This document shows positions 2,813 to 62,064 of a stretch of DNA of 64,000 bases, one piece after another. The stretch covers positions 15,562,001 to 15,626,000 of the forward strand of contig OX597833.1 in assembly GCA_951406725.2 (NCBI GenBank), in the 5' to 3' direction. The notes beneath the pieces were generated by a model. The model had not been told where the DNA came from, made no database searches, and was given only the letters and a program-made list of their open reading frames with translations. The stretch comes from Octopus vulgaris (Eukaryota). The position numbers and the translations under genes were made by a program. Each line of letters begins with the position of its first letter. Position 1 is the stretch's first letter.

Positions 2813-3097
2813 TATATAAGACACATACCCGAGAGCATCTCTACACTCATACCTAATTAGAAATAAACAAAGCTAAATGAGATTTATTATAATAACGATA
2901 CTCAACCAGTAATCCAAAATGGATTATGTTCGCAGACATACACCACGCATATCCCATTTTCCACACGGTGTATTAGAATATATTTTTATACTTCAGACGA
3001 TCCCTTGAATTAAGGTGCTCTCACATATTTAATTAATGTTTGTTAATAATATTAACGAAGTTAAGATTTAGGTGGTTCACCGCCTAACTATATAATT

Positions 3098-3640
3098 TAG
3101 GCGGTCAACTGGCAGAATCGTTAGCACACCGGGCGAAATGCGTAGCCGTATTTCGTCTGCCGTTACGTTCTGAGTTCAAATTCCGCCAAGGTCGACTTTG
3201 CCTTTCATCCGTTCCGGGTCGATAAATTAAGTACCAGATACGCACTGGCGTCCATATAATCGACTTAATTCGGTTGTCTGTCCTTGTTTGTCAACTCTGT
3301 GTTTAGCCCCTTGTGGGTAGTAAAGAAATAGGCATTTCGTCTACCGTTACGTTCTGAGTTAAAACTCCACCGACGTCGGCTTTGCCTTTCATCCTTTCGG
3401 GGTCGATTAAATACCTATTTCTTTACTACCCACAACGGGCTAAACACAGAGAGTACAAAAAAGGACAGACAACCGGATTAAGTCGATTATATCGACACCA
3501 TTGCGAAACTGGTACTTAATTTATCGACCCAGAAAGGATGAAAGGCAAAGTCGACCTCGGTGGAATTTGAACTCATAATGTAGCGGCAGACGAAATACTG
3601 CAAAGCATTTCGCCCGGCGTGCTAACGATTCTGCCAGCTC
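3098..3640. mobile_element. SINE family B: 1.4 forward units fused to an inverted full unit
   Basis: Head ctggcagaatcgttagcac, B-box gagttcaaattcc, central gcctttcatcctttcggggtcgat. Orientation flips at ~3410. Confidence 0.85.
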
Positions 3641-3692
3641 ACAGAAGCTGGTTTACTCCGTCTGAGAATACGAAAAAAAAAATACTTCGAGG

Positions 3693-4110: not shown

Positions 4111-4310
4111 TTGCCTACAGGGGGCTAAACATAGATGAAATATACAACGAGGGATAACATAAAAGGGGCAGACAAAGGGATTTAGTCGATAATATCTGGT
4201 ACTTATTTAATCAACCCCGAAAGAATGAAATGCAAATTTGACCTCGGCAGAATTTGAAATCAGAACGTAAGGGCAGACGAAATACGGCTAACGATTCTTG
4301 CACCTCACTG
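4110..4310 (-). mobile_element. Diverged SINE family B copy
   Basis: accccgaaagaatgaaatgcaaatttgacctcggcagaatttgaaatcagaacg. The flank duplicates 3620-3690. Confidence 0.75.
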
Positions 4311-4745
4311 AAGCTAGTTTTCTACGTCTGAGAATAAGAAAAGAAAATACTTCGACGCTGTTCCGGAGCGTTCACTTCATTCTAGATGTAATAATATCGT
4401 AAAGAACTAAACGCCTTTCAGGTGTTAGTTGTTTTTGTTATCAACGTACATTCTGAATTTGGTTCATGATAAAGAGTGTTATTTCACATAATTGGTAAAT
4501 TGATACAGAAGGTATCAGGGAAGTCTATGCTGGAAAATATGTACACAGAGCGTCAGCTAAGGTATGATTAGTAATTACATAGTGAGATGAGATTACGTTC
4601 GAAGGCTGGATTCGAGACGTAGCTACTAGTAATTATTGTGTGTGCATATATATATGTGTGTATATATATGTGTGTGGTTGTGCGCGCGCGTGTGTGTATA
4701 CATATATATATACATGCATATATTATATATCTACCTACATAAATA

Positions 4746-12526: not shown

Positions 12527-13452
12527 GTTCTGAGTTCAAATTCCGTCGAGGTCGGCTTTGACTTTCATCCTTTTGGGGTCAATAAATTAAGTACCAGTGA
12601 AACACTGGGATCTATGTAATCGACTTACCCCCTCCCCCAAAAGGCTGCCTTGTGGAAAAAATGTTCAACCATTATTATTATTGTTAGGGCAGCGTGCTAG
12701 CAAAAGGCAGCGAGCTGGTAGAATCATTAGCACACCGGACAGAATGCTTGGTGGTACTTTGTCAGTCTTTATGTTCTGGGTTCAAATTATTCTGAGGTGG
12801 ACTATGCTTTATAGCTTCCAAGTGTCCGTGAAATAAGTACCACTTGAGCACTCGGAGCGATGTAATTGATTATCTCCTCCCCACCACCACAACCACTCTC
12901 CCAAATATTAGACCTTATACCTATAGCAGAAAGAATTACTAGTCTCAAATTTTACCCAATCGATTTTGCCTCTCCTCTTTTCTGGCGTTGATTGTAAACG
13001 ACTAGTCCCCACATCGAAATTTTAGGCCTTGTGCATAGAGGAGAAAATTATTATCAGCAGACAACTTGCAGACAGAATCGTTTACCATCTTACACAAAAT
13101 GCTTAATAGCATTTCTTCCAGGTCTTAAAATTATGAGTTCAAATCTGTCGGCGTTAGTTTATTTTTCATCCTTTCTGTGGGGTAGATAAAAAATAAGTAC
13201 CAGTGAAAAACTGGGGTTCAGTGTAATCGAATAAGCCCTTTTCCGTTTAAACGCTGTCCTTTTGCTACAAGGCACAAGGACTGGAATTTGGGGGAGGGGC
13301 CAGTCGATTAAGTCGACACCAGTACGCAACTGGTACTTAATTTAACGACCCCGAAAGGATAAAAAGAAAAGTCGACCTCAGAACGTAACGGCAAACGAAA
13401 TATGGCTACACATTTCGCCCGGCGTGCTAACGGTTCTGCCAGCTCGCCGCCA
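12527..13452. mobile_element. Cluster of four to five old SINE family B copies
   Basis: Diverged gagttcaaat...tttcatcc...aagtaccag motifs at ~12530, ~12770 and ~13135 (+), plus a better-preserved minus copy at 13265-13452. Confidence 0.75.
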
Positions 13453-18680: not shown

Positions 18681-19530
18681 TATATTGTTTTTATGCTATT
18701 TTCATAACAATGTGAAATGAGGGGAAATATACGGAATAAAAGACCATTTTTTCTTTTCATAAATACAACACAGAATACAATTGCTAAATTTCTCTGAACA
18801 TCATCCTCTGCTTTACATTGTATATCAAATAATTACTTCTATTCCAAGCGAGAAAAATAGTATGAGATGAGAGCTGAAATATGAAAAGGCTATATTAGGA
18901 AGGATAGATGAAATATTGCATTCAAGGAGAAATATCTCCATCCTTTCTAAATTCGTAACAAAACGAACAAATACATCCTTTACAGTTTCTGATAATAATG
19001 AACGTATGTATGATGATTACAGATGTAACAAGGCTATGCTTTGCGGCATGGCCATTTACTCTCTCTGATCAAGCGGAAAAGAGTTCTTTGTAGTCAGAAA
19101 TGAAAGCTAATTGATCTTGAATTTAATATCTTATTTTTATATCATTTATGTTTATCCATTTTACTGCTTCATATCTCATAGAAATATTACGTTTCTTCTC
19201 AGTTGTAGAAGTCATCCTTTCCAAGCAAAATTTCAAGATGTCTATGAAAATATGTGGGAAAAACTTAATATTTACAGGTGATATTTAATTTGTTCAGCGA
19301 AAGCATCTCTATTCACTCGGTGTAAGAAAACCATGATTTGAATAGATACACGACTTAAACAATTGACTATTTGAAACAGGCTTCTTCAATTAAGAAAAAA
19401 ATAAATTGATTAATTTAAATAATTAATTATACTCTTGACACTTGCGCGCCACAGATTTTGTACCAAGTGGAGGATGCATAGTGTGGTTGCTGTGATAAGT
19501 ACAATAATTATACGTTATTTTCTTGTAACC

Positions 19531-20007
19531 TATTTCTTTATTACCCACAAGGGGCTAAACTTAGAGGGGACAAACAAGGACAGACATGGGTATTAAGTCG
19601 ATTACATCGACCCCAGTGCGGAACTGGTACTTAATTTATCGACCCCGAAAGGATGAAAGGCAAAGTCAATCTCGGCGAAATTTGAACTCAGAACGTAACG
19701 GCGGACGAAATAACGCTAAGCATTTCGCCCGCGTGCTAACGTTTCTGCCAGCTCGCCGCCTTCTTTTCTTTTTAAAAATAAATTATTAGATATATGTTTC
19801 TTTATTACCCACAAGGGGCTAAACACAGAGGGGACAAACAAGGACAGACATAGGTATTAAGTCGATTACATCGTCCCCAGTGCGTAACTGGTACTTTATT
19901 TATCGACCCCGAAAGGATGAAAGGCAAAGTCGACCTCGGCGGAATTTGAACTCAGAACGTAACGACAGACGAAATACTGCTAGGCATTTTGCCCGGCGTG
20001 CTAACGA
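19531..20007 (-). mobile_element. SINE family B dimer with 35-nt spacer inside one TSD
   Basis: TSD ttattttcttgtaacc at 19515-19530 and 20008-20023. Confidence 0.88.
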
Positions 20008-20184
20008 TTATTTTCTTGTAACCGTTTAACTTCCAATCGAAGACCAACATATATCTCAATTGTTTTTCAGTATAAACGCTTGCGATAAAGCGCTATTTGC
20101 AAGTGTTCGAAATTATTTGAAACCTTCAAAATGAATGCCACATATCTTAGGAGATTTTAAGCGAAGAAACAGGGTATACACATG

Positions 20185-20331: not shown

Positions 20332-20348
20332 TAGATAGATAGATATGT

Positions 20349-21586
20349 TTCTTTATTAGCCACACAGGGCTGCACACAGATAGAACAAATTACAAGGTAG
20401 AGCTTTTCTTTTGAAGGTTTAAGAAAGAAAAAAAAAAAAAAAAAAAAGGAAGGGGGAGTTTCGATCAAAAGGGATCGTAAAAGGAGAGAAAGAGGACAAA
20501 AAAAAGGGGGTTTAAAAAAAGGGGGGAGGAAAAAAATTGATCAATAGGGATCGTTATCACAGAAATATCAATATGAAGTGTAAAGGGGAGGACAGGTGAG
20601 GTTTACCCGTGCAAAGAAAAGCCTACGGAAAAGACCACGGTAACCTCGGTCAATGATGTCACATTTTATATTTCTTTTTTTTTTTTTTGCAAATAAGCAA
20701 CTCTCTGTTTTCGATTTCTGGGTTCATAGGATCATGCTCAAGGTGGCTTCGTCATTCATACGTGCCATTCTTGCTACATTCACCCATCTTTTTTTAAAAC
20801 ATTCGCTAGACAAAACTTGCCTCTCTACTCTCACTTTCCTTTTCAAGTGGTACTTGAAGAAGTTGATGAGGGATTGACCAGAGAGGAAAGTGTTTGTCTC
20901 CAATCCTTTCAGACGCGTCCACCAGATACATTCTTTCGCCATAGCCACAAGGATGATGAAAATAGCTCTTCCTTCCCGTTTGAAGGAAGGAGGCGTGACA
21001 ATATTGACGATAGACTCAGCTGATAAACCGACTCGTCCCACACGTGACAGCAGTTGTTCGACATAAGCCCACAGGTCGGAAATTGTTGGACACTGAACGA
21101 GTGCGTGCAGAACGGTTTCGTCGCTCTGACCGCATCTCGGGCAGGTCGGCCCCGTGTTTCTCGAGCCGTGTCTGTAGAGCTTATCCCGAACGGGTAGCGC
21201 TTCTCGGTAGCACTGCCAGGCCAGGGATCTCTGGAAGTTGTCCATGGGCCCTGGCCCGAAAGTCGTCCTGAACAGGCGGGTCAGGTACTCCTCGTCGACG
21301 TCCAGGTTCGCCCCGAGCTCGTCGTCGTACCTCCCCTCCACTAAACCCCTATAGAATGCTTTGGTTGTGTTGAAGTCACTTAAGGTCGACCCAGGACGGC
21401 AGAGTTGCTTGAGAGCAACGCGACACTCGCGGTGCCATTCGCCCTTCCTCGGCCTCTTTTTGATCCACGACTGCAGTTCGGTCATGGAGATGAGCTGCGG
21501 GAAAGCGTGCCTCACAAACGGCGACCACACCTGTTCACCGTCGTCTACATAGAGCCAGAGATGCCGCAGTCTCAGCGCGTGTCTGC
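20349..21586 (-). mobile_element. 5'-truncated Tx1/L1-clade LINE inserted in (GATA)n
   Basis: ORF2 C-terminus plus ~375-nt 3' UTR ending aataaagaaa. gatagatagatagatatgt is duplicated at 20330-20348 and 21599-21617. Confidence 0.88.
20724..21586 (-). pseudogene. LINE ORF2 C-terminal part with zf-RVT-type CCHC zinc knuckle
   Basis: Uninterrupted frame: WQCYREALPVRDKL...CPRCGQSDETVLHALVQCP...W. The listed start codon lies in the microsatellite and is not real. Confidence 0.85.
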
Positions 21587-21626
21587 GATAGATAGATAGA
21601 TAGATAGATAGATATGTATATATGTG

Positions 21627-27104: not shown

Positions 27105-28430
<1,326 letters not shown>

Positions 28431-30015: not shown

Positions 30016-30089
30016 TGATTTACTTTCTTTTCTAATATTTAGGATGATATTGTTTTCCACTATTAAAGTAATACGATTACGAAATATTT

Positions 30090-30570
30090 ATTTCTTTACT
30101 ACCCACAAGGGGCTAAACACAGAGGGGACAAACAAGGACAGACAAACGGATTAAGTCGATTATATCGACTCCAGTGCGTAACTGGTACTTATTTAATCGA
30201 CCCGGAAAGGATGAAAGCAAAGTTGACCTCGGCGGAATTTGAACTCAGAACATAGTGGCGGACGAAATACCTATTTCTTTACTACCCACAAAGGACTAAA
30301 CACAGAGAGGACAAACAAGGACAGACAAGCAGATTAAGTCGATTATATCGAACCCAGTTCGTAAATGGTACTTATTTAATCGACCCCGAGAGGATGAAAG
30401 GCAAAGTCGACCTCGGAGGAATTTGAACTCAGAACATAGTGGCAGACGAAATGCCTATTTCTTTACTACCCACAAGGGGCTAAACACAGAGGGGACAAAC
30501 AAGGACAGACAAGTTGTTTAAGTCGATTATATCGACCCCAGTGCGTAACTGGTACTTATTTAATCGACCC
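30090..30570 (-). mobile_element. SINE family B tandem array (~2.6 units, 5'-truncated)
   Basis: Junctions gaaat(a/g)cctatttc at ~30270 and ~30453. Confidence 0.9.
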
Positions 30571-31795: not shown

Positions 31796-32397
31796 TATTT
31801 CTTTACTACCCACAAGGGGCTATCACAGAGGGGACAAACAAGGACAGACAAACGGATTAAGTCGATTATATCGACCCTAGTGGCGTAACTGGTACTTAAT
31901 TTATCGACTCCGAAAGGATGAAAGGCAAAGTCGACCTCGGAGGAATTTGAACTCAGAACCTAACGGCAGACGAAATACATATTTTGTTTACTACTCACAA
32001 GGGGCTAAACACAGAGGGGACAAACAAGGACAGACAAACGGATTAAGTCGATTATATCGACAGCAGTATGTAACTGGTACTTAATTTATCGAATCCGAAA
32101 GGATGAATGGCAAAGTCGACCTCGGAGGAATTTGAACTCAGAACCTAACGGCAGACGAAATACCTATTTCTTTACTACCCACAAGGGGCTAAACATAAAG
32201 GAAACAAACAAGGACAGACAAAGGGATTAAGTCGATTACATCGACCGTAGTGCGTAACTGGTACTTATTTAATCGACCCCGAAAGGATGAAAGGTAAAGT
32301 CGACCTCGGCGGAATTTGAACACAGAACGTAACGGCAGACGAAATACGGCTACGCATTTCGCCCGGCGTGCTAACGATTCTGCCAGCTCGCCGCCCT
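31796..32397 (-). mobile_element. SINE family B tandem array (3 units)
   Basis: One head plus three bodies. TSD ccgtcttaaa(a/g)ca(c/t)acc at 31779-31795 and 32398-32414. Confidence 0.92.
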
Positions 32398-38821: not shown

Positions 38822-39215
38822 ATTTTTTTATTGCCCACAAGGAGCTAAACACAGAGGGGACAAACAAGGACAGACACAGGGATTAAGTCGATTACATCGA
38901 CCCTAGTGCGTAACTGGTACTTAATTTATTGACCCCGAAAGGATGAAAGGCAAAGTCGACCTCGGCGGAATTTGAACTCAGAACGTAACGGCAGACGAAA
39001 TACCTATTTCTTTACTACCCACAAGGGGCTAAACATAGAGAGGACAAACAAGGACAGACAAACGGATTAAGTCGATTATCTCGACCCCAGTGCGTAACTG
39101 GTACTTAATTTATCGACCCCGTAACGACGAAAGGCAAAGTCGACCTTGACGCAATTTGAACTCGAACGTAACGGCAGACGAAATACCGCTAAGAATTTCG
39201 CCCGGCGTGCTAACG
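38822..39215 (-). mobile_element. SINE family B tandem array (2 units) with scrambled 5' end
   Basis: Junction gaaatacctatttc at ~39003. Confidence 0.88.
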
Positions 39216-39443
39216 TAGAGAGGACAAACAAGGACAGCTCGATTATCTCGCCCTCTTCTTGATATATTACAACCAGCAAAGTATTTTGCTTGTTGCAAAC
39301 CAATGACCTGGCTATTGCGCTGGTGCCAGCTCGCCGCCCTCTTCTTGATAAATTACAACTCTAAACTCTTCTTGATATATTACAACCAGCTATTTTGCTT
39401 GTTGCAAACCAATGACCTGGCTATTGCGCTGGTGACCAGGTAC

Positions 39444-55022: not shown

Positions 55023-55484
55023 GTGGTCTGTTGACTTGCACATCACGTTCCGTTTGGATACTTTAAGCCGACAGAACGGTGATATATTCATTTCCTCCTA
55101 CTGTGACAAGCTTATGCATCCAGCAGTTCTTCTCGTATTGGAGTACAGACATATGGCATATGATCCAGCGTAAATACAGGTCACATCTATCACGTTGATT
55201 AATATATTTATTTGAAGTTAGCATAGATTATCAAAAGATTAGGCCGCCAATCGTTTGCGTGGCTGCATTACAAACTGGCAGGTGAGATCAGCTGCATCTT
55301 AAAGAATACTTGCTTGGCACTTTCTGATGGACATATACTGATTCTGATCCGCCCTCTGTTTCTGATCTATGCCCAGATGCAGTCAACCATTGATAGGTCA
55401 TATTTGTATTTACATAAGGATCGCTGACACTTTTAAGGCTTTGGCTATGTAATGCCTTACAGCTCTACTATATTTGGTGTTCGA

Positions 55485-56082
55485 AAGGCGGCGAGCTGGC
55501 AGAAACGTTAGCGCGCCGGGCGAAATGCTTAGCGGTATCTCGTCGGCCGTTACGTTCTGAGTTCAAATTGTGCCAAGGTCGACTTTGCCTTTCATCCTTT
55601 CGGGATCGATTAAATAAGTACCAGTTACGCACTGGGGTCGATATAATTGACTTAATCCGTTTGTCTGCCCTTGTTTATCCCCTCTGGGTGTAGCCCCTTG
55701 TGGGTAGTAAAGAAATAGGTATTTCGTCTGCCGCTACGTTCTGAGTTCAAATTCCGCCGAGGTCGACTTTGCTTTATCCTTTCGGGGTCGATTAAATAAG
55801 TACCAGTTACGCACTGGGGTCGATATAATCGACTTAATCCGTTTGTCTGTCCTTGTTTATCCCCTCTGTGTGTAGCCCCTTTTGGGTAGTAAAGAAATAG
55901 GTATTTCGTCTGCCGTTACGTTCTGAGTTCAAATTGTGCCGAGATCGACTTTGCCTTTCATCCTTTCGGGGTCGATTAAATAAGTACCAGTTACGCACTG
56001 GGGTCGATGTAATCGACTTAATCCGTTTGTCTGTCCTTGTTTGTTCCCTCTATGTTTAACCCTCGCCGGCAGTAAAGAAAAA
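55485..56082 (+). mobile_element. SINE family B tandem array (3 units)
   Basis: Junctions at 55718 and 55900 (period 182). TSD tatatttg(g/a)tgttcga at 55469-55484 and 56083-56098. Confidence 0.93.
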
Positions 56083-56865
56083 TATATTTGATGTTCGATG
56101 TTATAATCATACGATAATCCTAATTTGGGTATGTTCCGTGAGTTTATGGATTATACTAATCTCTTGACCCTGGCATTCCAAATTCGCGTCAGCGATGTGA
56201 TTGATGGTAATTCTTAAAGACACTACTATTAACAATGTTCGCTGTTATACCCATTTCAATAGCCTGAATGTATTACTCTCGCTTCAGAGAGACAGATACA
56301 TCTGAACGTTCATGTGGAAGAATCTTAACATGAACAGTTGGGCTATGTATATATTATGGCAGTTTCAAGATATCAGATCAATATTTTAATAATTTCCCTT
56401 GAGAATATGCAAAACTATATGCTATCGCCGTGCGTGGGCAATATTTTCTTAACGTCAAGAAATCCCTGGATATGTGCTGACTGACTTCAAGACAGGCCAA
56501 TCGGTATGATGCGTGGGGCAATATCCACTTATACTATTTTCTTCCCTTAAACAGCAATTACCAACAAGAATCTTTAAGAAAGACCTGGCTTCCTTCAAAC
56601 ACTACTGCGAAATGTTTTCACAATTATGGCCCGCATGCAGTTGAAATTTTCTTTAATGGTCTCGTAAAATGGAGAAAAGGGAAAACAAGGTGTACAGTCA
56701 TAACTATAGTAACAACGGTAGGAATACTAAAATAGGTGGATGCCAAACTCAGTAGAATATTTCAACACCAGCTCCTTATGACAGCATTTACCATAAGTAA
56801 CAGTAAGTACGATATAGTTCTAACTTCAAGGCATAACATATAAGCGCGCAAAACACACACGTATG

Positions 56866-59665: not shown

Positions 59666-60184
59666 GTATTTATGCGTGTGTATAAAAATACAGATAGATA
59701 AGATGTATATAATATAGATATTAAGCGTTATTATTTTAGACCTCTGCTTTTATCGCTCAAGAGCATGATGTGGCATATTAAATATATGAAGATAGCTGTG
59801 TGTAAAATAAGCCGATTGCTATTAAAAAGAAAGACATATGTCAAAAGTGATTTTCACTTGAAAATCCCTTTCGAAGTTATTATTATTTCTTATAAATTTT
59901 CAAACATTGTTTTACTTTACGAAATGAGATGTCAATTTGTAAATAATGTTTACACACGATAAACCCCCCACAAACACACAAACAAACAAACACATTTATA
60001 AATAATTGATGTAGACAGTGGTTTGCAATATGTTACCACAAAGGAAAACTATAATTGTCATTAAATAGGATTAAGTGCGTTAGAACACCTAAATTGCTAG
60101 AAATAAGAGCTAAGCTGATCCAATGCTGTAGTCAAAGCACATAATTATATACACATATACTGAGAGAAGCGGTAATCGCCCGAA

Positions 60185-60811
60185 GGCGGCGAGCTGGCAG
60201 AATCGTTAGCACGCCGGGCGAAATGCTTAGCCGTATTTCGTCTGCTACTACGTTCTGAGTTCAAATTCCGCCAAGGTCGACTTTGCCTTTCGGGGTCGAT
60301 AAATTAAGTACCAGTTACGCACTGGGGTCGATGTAATCGACTTAATCCGTTTGTCTGTCCTTGTTTATCCCCTCTGTGATAGCCCCTTGTGTGTAGTAAA
60401 CAAATAGGTAAGTTTAGCCCCTTTTGGGTAGTAAAGAAATAGGTATTTCGTCTGCCGCTACATTCTGAGTTCAAATTCCGCCGAGGTCAAATTTCCCTTT
60501 CATCATTTCGGGGTCGATTAAATAAGTACCAGTTACGCACTGGGGTCGATATAATCGACTTAATCCGTTTGTCTGTCCTTGTTTGTGCTCTCTGTTGTGT
60601 AGCCCCTTGTGGGCAGAAAAGAAATAGGTATTTCGTCTGCCGCTACATTCTGAGTTCAAATTCCGCCGAGAGTCAAATTTCCCTTTCATCCTTTCGATGT
60701 CGATAAATTAAGTACCAGTTACGCACTGGGGTCGATGTAGTCGATTTAATCCCTTTGTTTGTCCTTGTTTGTCCCCTCTATCTTTAGCCCCTTGTGAGAA
60801 ATAAAGAAATA
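60185..60811 (+). mobile_element. SINE family B tandem array (3 units plus partial tail duplication)
   Basis: TSD core gtaatcgcccgaa at 60172-60184 and 60819-60831. Confidence 0.92.
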
Positions 60812-61245
60812 AGAAACCGTAATCGCCCGAATGTACCGTGGAGAATTCCCTATACTGAGCGTTCACTTTCAGCTTTTACCGTAGTCTCCTTTGAAGGTAT
60901 AGTTCGACTCATTTGATTGCGAATGGAATTCACCGTCAGTATATATGTATTCGCCATAGATATCTATGAATGATTTAGCGAATGGCTAATCTGTATACAA
61001 ATAGTTCATATAGAAAGCGGTGTGTAATGTTTTATCAAAAAGATAACATATAATTTTCATTAAATATGATTAAGTGTGTTAGAACACCTACATTGCTAGA
61101 AATAAGAGTTAAAGTGCTCCATTGTTCTACAAAAAACATATTGTATACATATATGCTGGTAGAGACCGTAATCGTTCCAGAATTCCCTTTACTCATCGGT
61201 CAGTTTCGGCTTTTACCGTAGCCTCATATATTTATATATCTATAA

Positions 61246-62040
61246 GGCGGCGACCTGGCAGAAACGTTAGCGCGCCGGGTGAAATGCTTATCGGTATTTT
61301 GTCTGTCGTTACGTTCTGAGTTCAAATTGCGTCAAGGTCGACTTTGCCTTTCATCTTTTCGGGGTCGATAAATTAAGTACCAGTTATGCACTGGGGTCGA
61401 TATAATCGACTTAATCCGTTTGTCCTCTCTGTGTTTGCCCCTTGTGGGTAGTAAAGAAATATGTATTTCGAACGTCTTTTCGCACTCCAGTTCTGAGTTG
61501 ACTGTGGCTCTCATCCTTTCGCGGTCGATAAAGGTAAGTACCATCTGAGCACTGGGCTCGATGTAATCAACTTACTCCCTACATCGAAATTACGAGCCTT
61601 AATACCTATGCCTGTCCTTCTTTGTCCCCTCTATGTTTAGCCCCTTGTGGGTAGTAAAGAAATAGGTATTTCGTCTGTCGTTATGTTCTGATTTCAAATT
61701 CCGCCGAGGTCGAATTTGCCTTTCATCCTATCGGGGTCGATAAATTAAGTACCAGTTACGCACTGGGGTCGATGTAATCGACTTAATACCAATGTCTGTC
61801 CTTGTTTGTCCCCTCTATGTTTAGCCCCTTGTGGGTAATAAAGAAATAGAAATAGGTATTTTGTCTGTCGTTACGTTCTGAGTTCAAATTCCGCTGAGGT
61901 CGACTTTGCCTTTCATCCTTGCGGGGTCGATAAATTAAGTACCAGTTACGCACTGGGGTCGATGTAATCGACTTAATACCAATGTTGTCTGTCCTTGTTT
62001 GTCCCCTCTATGTTTAGCCCCTTGTGGGCAGTAAAGAAAT
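61246..62040 (+). mobile_element. SINE family B tandem array (4 units, one chimeric)
   Basis: Perfect 20-bp TSD atatatttatatatctataa at 61226-61245 and 62041-62060. Confidence 0.92.
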
Positions 62041-62064
62041 ATATATTTATATATCTATAAGTAT

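What the first reader, a model, noticed from the sequence alone, without database searches (positions are those of the whole stretch)
55469..56098. SINE B forms ~183-bp tandem arrays that re-enter at the same point in its anticodon-like loop
Seen: at seven loci (3331, 30270/30453, 31977/32163, 39003, 55718/55900, 60442/60627, 61665/61855) the tail ...aaagaaata joins ggtatttcg. That point lies in the loop of a 12-bp head hairpin (cgggcgaaatgc-ttagcg-gtatttcgtctg). The tail end gaaata is complementary to tatttc. Four arrays have one head and one TSD around all units. Inference gives two models. (1) The RNA is cut in the anticodon-like loop and ligated to its own paired 3' end, giving a circle copied by rolling-circle RT; no hammerhead is visible in the unit. 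(2) The Tx1 endonuclease targets gc|ggt within the SINE with homologous 5' joining; two TSDs (19530, 31795) also begin GGT. Either would be an unusual amplification route.
Basis: partly seen in the sequence, partly recalled or inferred. Interest (0 to 1): 0.78.

Follow-up and report, generated by a model that had tools for sequence, protein, structure and literature searches.

The report
Octopus SINE that jumps as chains
A common short retrotransposon in an octopod genome mostly sits as chains of one promoter-bearing head plus 2-4 headless 183-base copies; the chains likely began when one copy landed inside another copy's head and were then likely copied around as whole linear RNAs, and the circular-RNA route first proposed is not supported.

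Summary
The arrays are real: 13 tail|(G/T)GTATTTCG junctions in 7 loci; four arrays have one head and one 16-21 bp TSD. The ~45-nt tail matches the 3' end of an L1/Tx1-type LINE fragment in the window (83%/47 nt). The same junction occurs in contigs of three runs with different organism labels. Against rolling-circle copying: units of one array were not identical at birth (23 subset-shared variants, at most 6.7 expected); first units G1/J1 of different arrays are sisters; last units group with solo copies; heads carry C/A at the junction letter in 5 of 9, junctions in 0 of 13; no ribozyme found. TSD-verified targets do resemble GGTATTT (20 of 35 letters, p about 3e-4, post hoc, n=5). Best reading (0.6): a full copy inserted by TPRT at GGTATTT inside another SINE head; Pol III read-through made that composite a multimer master, which retroposes whole and gains or loses units by homologous switching or crossover. 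Related to known SINE multimers and TSD-(SINE)n-TSD arrays; a new variant. RNA level untested.

The parts
55469..55484 (+). left TSD of array H (16 bp, starts TATATTT)
55485..55533 (+). tRNA-derived head of array H with A-box-like sequence; present once per array
   Evidence: box assignment from knowledge of tRNA layout
55517..55546 (+). 12-bp head hairpin; re-entry point is the last loop base (55534)
55534..55717 (+). unit H1 (B-box-like sequence, central body, LINE-like tail ending AGTAAAGAAATA)
55718..55899 (+). headless unit H2
55900..56082 (+). headless last unit H3 with solo-type 3' markers (3 of 7)
56083..56098 (+). right TSD of array H
60183..60811 (+). array I: head + 3 units, with a 34-nt tail fragment after GGTA at 60407-60441; 20-bp TSD
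61244..62041 (+). array J: head + 4 units; 21-bp TSD; extra GAAATA at the 61855 junction
61462..61664 (+). unit J1b: diverged old family-A body starting at the same junction, capped by a young B tail
31796..32395 (-). array F: head + 3 units; 17-bp TSD starting GGTAT
30089..30570 (-). array E: 5'-truncated, 3 units; no TSD found; followed by AATATTTCG
38822..39240 (-). array G: head + 2 units; head carries an ~18-nt piece like its own tail; no clear TSD
3097..3413 (+). array A: head + unit + 83-nt partial unit, joined to inverted copy B
3409..3640 (-). copy B: head + unit, tail followed by GGTATTT
19531..20009 (-). solo-type copies D and C (AATAAA tails), 35-nt spacer, one shared TSD starting GGTTAC
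20346..21587 (-). 5'-truncated L1/Tx1-type LINE fragment (zf-RVT ORF end + 3' UTR) whose last ~47 nt match the SINE tail; likely partner family

Best explanation
The arrays are TSD-flanked chains of one SINE head plus headless 183-bp units, and they are most likely whole retroposed copies of multimeric source elements whose junction was likely first made when a full-length copy inserted at the GGTATTT site inside another copy's head. Steps: (1) shown: the SINE tail matches the 3' end of an L1/Tx1-type LINE, and every TSD-verified copy ends at the same register, AAAGAAA+2 nt. (2) shown on n=5, post hoc: target sites resemble GGTATTT, which the SINE head itself contains. (3) inferred: a nested TPRT insertion there gives new full copy + headless resident copy; the resident's own head is left upstream. 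(4) inferred: Pol III starts at the single intact head and reads on, because the unit consensus has no T4 run and TATTT at each junction is only a leaky terminator, so RNAs of 1-4 units arise. (5) inferred: the LINE RT starts at any tail, probably helped by pairing of the downstream GGUAUUU with the nicked target, and inserts the chain with one TSD. (6) inferred: units are gained, lost and mixed by homologous template switching or unequal crossover, which keeps the junction exact. The common re-entry point is therefore mostly inherited and occasionally remade (J1b).
For: One TSD per chain in F, H, I, J, starting 1-2 nt after AAAGAAA in 5 of 5 TSD-verified SINE insertions. Tail-LINE match 83%/47 nt, E 2e-8 within the window; LINE ORF has zf-RVT, and its 67%-identical full-length relative matches LINE-1 ORF2p best (E 3e-50; R2 4e-24). 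Targets 20 of 35 letters match GGTATTT, p 3e-4 against window background. Inheritance: letter before GTATTTCG is C or A in 5 of 9 young heads but in 0 of 13 junctions, p 0.005; arrays A, F, I have C heads yet G/T junctions. The commonest loose end at that point reads tail-AGTAAA+GG in 325 contigs (X15) and 716 contigs (X5, another organism label), and the joint is also in X14. Position structure: marker 42A in 5 of 6 first units and 0 of 11 other array units, p 0.001 (a CpG site); G1+J1 sisters 95/89; solos C1, D1 group with G2, I3, J2, J3 (85/91, not starred); G1+G2 rejected as a clade, p-AU 0.03. Local relatedness: within 9.0% vs between 10.7%, p 0.00015. No T4 run in arrays A, E, F, G. TATTT terminates 42% of SINE transcripts in mammalian cells (PMC8466645, passages). 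RNA:target annealing and internal RT starts are proposed for SART1Bm and R1Bm (PMC7265360, passages). Tx1-mobilised SINEs with target preference for another repeat exist (PMC4494074, results read).
Against: Only 7 arrays and 5 verified targets; the target test is post hoc, and 2 of 5 targets match only 2-3 of 7 letters. Whole-unit distance shows no position effect (p 0.33; halves p 0.09-0.62), and solo-type tails in last units (4 of 6 vs 2 of 11) are not significant (p 0.11). AU tests do not reject one clade per array for F, H, I, J (p 0.06-0.38), and E is one side of a branch. No source locus with the left-behind head was seen, and the matching joint is not among the 15 joints shown of 601. 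TATTT also lies in the head, so Pol III must pass it first; terminator strength in octopus is unknown. The model does not explain why the tail end is complementary to the unit start. Transcription was not shown.
Confidence: 0.6

Rival explanations
1. One ancestral dimer; all longer arrays arise after insertion by ordinary DNA-level duplication (unequal crossover, conversion), as proposed for SINE-derived satellites.
For: Within-array similarity; sister pairs F2/F3 (94/88) and the E group; 9% within-array divergence leaves time; published view for sSat and clam arrays (PMC10702118, PMC11481361).
Against: Needs a separate duplication at 5 of 7 loci in 64 kb. Simple crossover from a dimer predicts middle 5' = last and middle 3' = first, which H and I do not fit. 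Chains ending with internal-type tails before GGT/AATATTTCG (E, F, B) look like internal RT starts. J1b needs another event.
Confidence: 0.15
2. The RNA is cut in the hairpin loop, ligated to its own 3' end, and the 183-nt circle is copied by rolling-circle RT.
For: Fixed junction; in the headless fragment the 5' end is predicted to pair with the tail (P 0.49-0.86 in F1, C1, I1; 0.01 in H1); E, F and J last units are close kin; the junction is abundant in contigs of a run guessed to be RNA (uninformative on circles).
Against: Only 6 variants are shared by all units of an array, against 23 shared by subsets (at most 6.7 expected); 14 markers shared with other loci are polymorphic inside arrays; H2/H3 and I2/I3 differ at such markers. 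Junction letter does not follow the array's own head. No Rfam ribozyme at E<=10, no exact hammerhead core on either strand. In full-length RNA the tail pairing has P<=0.002 because the head arm wins. A pure circle has no head, yet arrays start with one.
Confidence: 0.1
3. Each array is built in place by repeated sequence-specific insertion of new monomers at C|GGTATTT with homologous 5' joining.
For: Target resemblance; last units often solo-type; J1b; the GGTA-flanked 34-nt tail fragment in I could be a truncated nested insertion; Tx1 families often target repeats (PMC4494074).
Against: Junctions should keep the resident head's letter (C/A in 5 of 9) but never do (0 of 13); units from unrelated donors would not be more alike within arrays; last units are not clearly older (2.7-9.3% vs 4.8-7.1% from consensus); verified targets are loose.
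Confidence: 0.08
4. RT stops at the hairpin loop (cut or modified RNA) and jumps without homology to the 3' end of another SINE RNA, remaking the junction in each event.
For: Junction uses the exact RNA 3' register; mosaic units; extra GAAATA at 61855 and the tail-like piece in head G suggest RT stutter or switching.
Against: Uniform GG plus AGTAAA junction type across loci and organisms; position-specific markers.
Confidence: 0.07

Closest known systems
TSD1-(SINE)n-TSD1 arrays of the blood clam Scapharca broughtonii (PMC11481361, passages read)
   Same: Mollusc tRNA SINE; first copy with full head, later copies head-truncated at one position; one TSD around all
   Different: There, first and middle copies also lack the tail end and arrays are about 3% of copies. 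Here every unit ends at the exact TPRT 3' end and chains are the majority form in this window (7 of 9 young loci).
SINE-derived satellites (sSat) of squamates (PMC10702118, late results and discussion read)
   Same: Tandem units made of part of a SINE with a longer terminal unit; 115-180 bp periods
   Different: sSat are long, subtelomeric and explained by DNA-level amplification; these are dispersed 2-4-mers, each with its own TSD.
Multimeric SINEs (Dip/B1 multimers, B2 dimers, Alu-type dimers; PMC8466645 passages, PMC10702118)
   Same: Head-to-tail chains that may retropose as a unit; TATTT as moderate terminator
   Different: Those are chains of full-length SINEs; here internal units are headless with one fixed internal junction.
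SINEU-3 / Tx1-Mar of crocodilians (PMC4494074, results read)
   Same: SINE mobilised by Tx1 with target preference for another repeat; tandem insertions
   Different: Tandems there are separated by TSDs and the target is a Mariner element, not the SINE's own head; here the preference is weak.
Non-LTR retrozymes (bioRxiv 10.64898/2026.07.22.740005, passages read)
   Same: Dispersed monomers to multimers of a short unit
   Different: They carry a type I hammerhead in each unit and relate to Penelope elements; no hammerhead here, and there is a Pol III head and LINE tail.

Membership tests
tRNA-derived SINE with LINE-derived tail | Variable-length TSDs | tested here: met
   16-21 bp at C/D, F, H, I, J
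tRNA-derived SINE with LINE-derived tail | tRNA-related head with A and B boxes | tested here: inconclusive
   Box-like motifs by eye; ARAGORN and Rfam give no tRNA hit
tRNA-derived SINE with LINE-derived tail | 3' end shared with a LINE | tested here: met
   83% over 47 nt with the end of the LINE fragment, E 2e-8
tRNA-derived SINE with LINE-derived tail | Pol III transcription | not testable with these tools
   Only contigs of runs guessed to be RNA were available
Deu/Nin-domain SINE superfamily | Central conserved Deu/Nin domain | not testable with these tools
   Resemblance recalled only; no reference sequence was available. tRNA-Deu SINEs are listed for O. vulgaris (PMC13282606)
Tx1 clade (partner LINE) | L1-type ORF2 with RT and C-terminal zinc motif | tested here: met
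   zf-RVT; relatives with PF00078+PF13966; best PDB match LINE-1 ORF2p
Tx1 clade (partner LINE) | RT phylogeny inside Tx1 rather than L1 proper | not tested
Non-LTR retrozyme | Type I hammerhead in every unit | tested here: not met
   No Rfam hit; no exact core on either strand of 7 arrays, 1-mismatch hits scattered and not conserved
Non-LTR retrozyme | Circular monomer RNA | not testable with these tools
   No raw RNA reads offered
SINE-derived satellite (sSat) | Tandem units from part of a SINE with longer terminal unit | tested here: met
SINE-derived satellite (sSat) | Long homogenised arrays, subtelomeric | tested here: inconclusive
   In this window at most 4 units, 9% apart; no genome held
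Target-specific Tx1/SINE system | Most copies at one fixed target sequence | tested here: not met
   5 verified targets match GGTATTT at 2-5 of 7 letters: a bias, not specificity

The most novel reading that the evidence does not exclude
The junction is a self-renewing device. Leaky Pol III termination at its TATTT leaves RNAs ending in GGUAUUU, the same 7 nt that open each unit. This terminal redundancy steers TPRT to GGTATTT-like sites (the SINE's own head included, and sites that hand the new copy a terminator) and lets a cDNA that has reached a unit start re-prime on another RNA's tail in the normal TPRT register. Units would then be added during reverse transcription, an LTR-like strand transfer in a LINE-mobilised SINE; a ligated 183-nt circle as a side intermediate is not excluded.
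Probability: 0.25. Interest if true: 0.75.

Novelty: new variant of a known kind. Interest (0 to 1): 0.5.

Why it matters
SINE tandem arrays are usually put down to DNA recombination after insertion. Here the chain itself appears to be the mobile unit of an abundant octopod SINE, with a junction fixed at the RT start site and a target bias that matches the element's own head. With thousands of datable copies in public octopus assemblies, it offers a direct test of how SINE multimers and SINE-derived satellites start, and of RNA-target pairing in Tx1-type retrotransposition. It also matters for repeat annotation (SINEs are 11.6% of O. vulgaris, PMC13282606) and for circRNA calls: the genomic junction mimics a back-splice or circle junction.

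Tried and rejected
No whole genome held. Tail pattern: 0 hits in metagenome, viral and prokaryote contigs; LINE protein in metagenome contigs gave one weak 32% locus, not used. Raw DNA run X21 laid only 15 of 12.9 million reads, so it gave no genome-wide junction count or target logo. Contig word depths (unit/head about 4.5 in X15, 2.0 in X5, 4.8 in X14) are not copy number or expression, and the runs differ in organism; not used as evidence for a circle. Rfam: only preQ1-II at E 5.2, chance. Crude recalled-motif scans for twister, HDV-like, pistol and hatchet cores found nothing; these are weak tests. Whole-element folding is not above shuffles (z -1.1, -1.2). The D1 row of the fragment-pairing test was dropped because the script picked the wrong cut site. 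A2 (83 nt) and J1b were left out of distances and the tree. A C at target position -1 (3 of 5 sites) was too weak to separate endonuclease preference from RNA pairing. Earlier scan notes: one unrelated phage hit, then none. Literature searches showed no description of these octopus arrays. Ohshima and Okada 1994 (octopus SINEs; seen only as a citation), Repbase, Dfam and SINEBase could not be seen and may already hold this family or a dimer consensus; bioRxiv supplements were closed.

Full report
Setting. The window is AT-rich, microsatellite-rich animal DNA. A LINE ORF fragment at 20724-21590 (-) has relatives at 60-70% identity, one from Argonauta hians, so the source is probably an octopod (inference). 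No genome is held. A BLAST of the head plus first unit gives 40 hits. They fall into an older family A (head + body + a different tail; about 10 decayed copies) and a young family B (2.7-9.3% from its consensus) with the tail in question.

B occurs at nine young loci: A, B, C/D, E, F, G, H, I, J. Seven contain tail|unit junctions, 13 in all, at periods of 182-190 bp; the junction motif is far above chance (15 vs 0.26). F, H, I and J each have one head and one TSD of 16-21 bp; C and D share one TSD. The junction is not a local oddity. With solo copy C as reference, the joint from head position 19711-19712 back to the tail end appears in contigs of runs X15 (22 contigs in three rows), X5 (40) and X14 (3), which carry three different organism labels. 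The top loose end there reads tail-AGTAAA+GG in 325 (X15) and 716 (X5) contigs. Ordinary full-length head-to-tail joints also exist (2, 38 and 2 contigs). The tool says counts were incomplete.

Anatomy. The head has A- and B-box-like motifs and a 12-bp hairpin found in both families (89% of cells paired in 14 heads, slid controls 35-52%, covariation not above shuffles). By tRNA numbering (my knowledge) the re-entry point is position 44/45, not the anticodon loop. The last 47 nt of B match the end of the LINE fragment at 83%. That LINE is L1/Tx1-like (zf-RVT; best solved match LINE-1 ORF2p); the label Tx1 was not tested by phylogeny. In 5 of 5 TSD-verified insertions the TSD starts 1-2 nt after AAAGAAA, without poly(A), so RT starts at a fixed register. 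The array junction uses exactly that register. This argues that the junction was first made by a retrotransposition event, not by a random DNA duplication (inference).

Were units copied from one template? No. Units are somewhat closer within arrays (9.0% vs 10.7%, 16 and 120 pairs, p 0.00015). But across six arrays only 6 variants are shared by all units, and 23 by a subset (at most 6.7 expected by chance); 14 markers found at three or more loci are polymorphic inside an array. In the tree of 21 units only E is one side of a branch (88/78). G1 and J1, first units of different arrays, are sisters (95/89). The solos C1 and D1 group with G2, I3, J2, J3 (85/91, not starred). G1+G2 is rejected as a clade (p-AU 0.03); F, H, I, J are not rejected (0.06-0.38). 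Marker 42A is in 5 of 6 first units and 0 of 11 other array units (p 0.001, a CpG site). Against this, whole-unit distance by position is not significant (p 0.33), nor is the solo-type tail in last units (4 of 6 vs 2 of 11, p 0.11).

Is the junction remade or inherited? The letter before GTATTTCG is G in 4, C in 3 and A in 2 of 9 young heads, but G in 11 and T in 2 of 13 junctions (p 0.005). Arrays A, F and I have C heads and G/T junctions. Cutting and ligating an array's own RNA, or inserting into its own head, would carry the head's letter over. So most junctions are inherited, and the shared type in other organisms suggests an old founder. One case looks independent: J1b is a decayed family-A body that begins at TGTATTTCG right after a young B tail, as expected if a B copy landed at that site in an old A copy and the composite was later transcribed from the B head and retroposed. 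The extra GAAATA at 61855 and the GGTA-flanked tail fragment in I may be further events, but have other readings.

Target bias. The upstream TSD copies begin GGTTACA, GGTATGC, TATATTT, AGAAGCG, TATATTT: 20 of 35 letters match GGTATTT (background mean 1.97 of 7; p 3e-4; post hoc). The unverified ends of E and B continue AATATTT and GGTATTT. This is a bias, not site specificity. It could come from the endonuclease (Tx1 families often prefer other repeats, PMC4494074, results sections read) or from pairing of RNA downstream of the tail with the nicked target, as proposed for SART1Bm and R1Bm (PMC7265360, passages). TATTT is a moderate Pol III terminator (42% in B2 constructs, PMC8466645, passages), and arrays A, E, F, G have no T4 run. 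So read-through RNAs of 1-4 units ending in GGUAUUU are plausible; this is extrapolated from mammals.

The circle. No ribozyme family reaches E<=5 and no exact hammerhead core lies on either strand. The tail cannot compete with the head arm in full-length RNA (P<=0.002; duplex -0.5 to -3.6 vs -14 to -18 kcal/mol in F1, C1, I1, H1). Once the head is removed, tail:start pairing is predicted in 3 of 4 usable copies (P 0.49-0.86). So the complementarity is real and unexplained by my model; it could have helped the founder event. No raw RNA reads were offered, and the one raw DNA run laid was uninformative (15 reads).

Mechanism (0.6). Nested TPRT at GGTATTT in a SINE head made a full copy followed by a headless one. 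Pol III read-through turned this into a multimer master. The partner RT starts at any tail and inserts the chain with one TSD. Homologous switching or crossover changes unit number and mixes markers while keeping the junction exact. Shown: structure, register, tail homology, marker patterns, target resemblance. Inferred: transcription, founder event, how units are added. Rivals: DNA-level growth from a dimer (0.15), circle (0.10), repeated in-place self-targeting (0.08), fresh RT jumps (0.07).

Comparison. The nearest description I found is TSD1-(SINE)n-TSD1 in the blood clam (PMC11481361, passages), then squamate sSat (PMC10702118, late results and discussion), full-length SINE multimers (PMC8466645) and SINEU-3 (PMC4494074). 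It fails the retrozyme test (no hammerhead; bioRxiv 10.64898/2026.07.22.740005, passages). The O. vulgaris repeat paper (PMC13282606; first third read, supplement searched) lists tRNA-Deu SINEs and L1-Tx1 but I saw no mention of these arrays. Nine searches showed none either; PMC4758252 and PMC4824008 were seen as passages only. Repeat databases and the 1994 octopus SINE paper could not be seen. Verdict: real, a new variant of multimeric SINE, less exotic than first proposed; interest 0.5.

Noticed in passing
window 19516-20024 (-): Two solo-type copies (5'-truncated D, full C) with a 35-nt AT-rich spacer sit inside one TSD: a second kind of multimer retroposed as a unit. D's tail continues like the LINE end (AAAGAAACATAT).
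   Followed up: partly
window 39217-39237 (-): The head of array G has about 18 nt replaced by a piece resembling G1's own tail, suggesting head-tail template switching or templated repair.
   Followed up: partly
window 3641-3690 and 4301-4356 (-): Copy B and the older copy at 4291 share about 56 nt of 5' flank (~85% alike): a 5'-extended subfamily or a local duplication.
   Followed up: no
window 3097-3640: Array A and copy B form an inverted pair joined through an AAATA microhomology, with no spacer.
   Followed up: no
window 4291 (-) and 43910 (+): Older copies that lack the 5' arm of the head hairpin, apparently deleted between TTAGC repeats.
   Followed up: no
window 13050-13452: Two old family-A copies in tail-to-tail orientation, forming an inverted repeat.
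   Followed up: no
joint 19762->19596: 42 contigs in X5 and 16 in X14 join a head to an A-type tail with 64 letters between: family A also forms full-length head-to-tail dimers.
   Followed up: no
window 20346-21587 (-): The LINE fragment is inserted in a (TATC)n/(TA)n microsatellite with a TSD-like repeat, as some Tx1 families prefer microsatellites.
   Followed up: partly
window 27139-28426: A 1.3-kb (TAA)n array with higher-order periodic variants.
   Followed up: no
   Followed up: no
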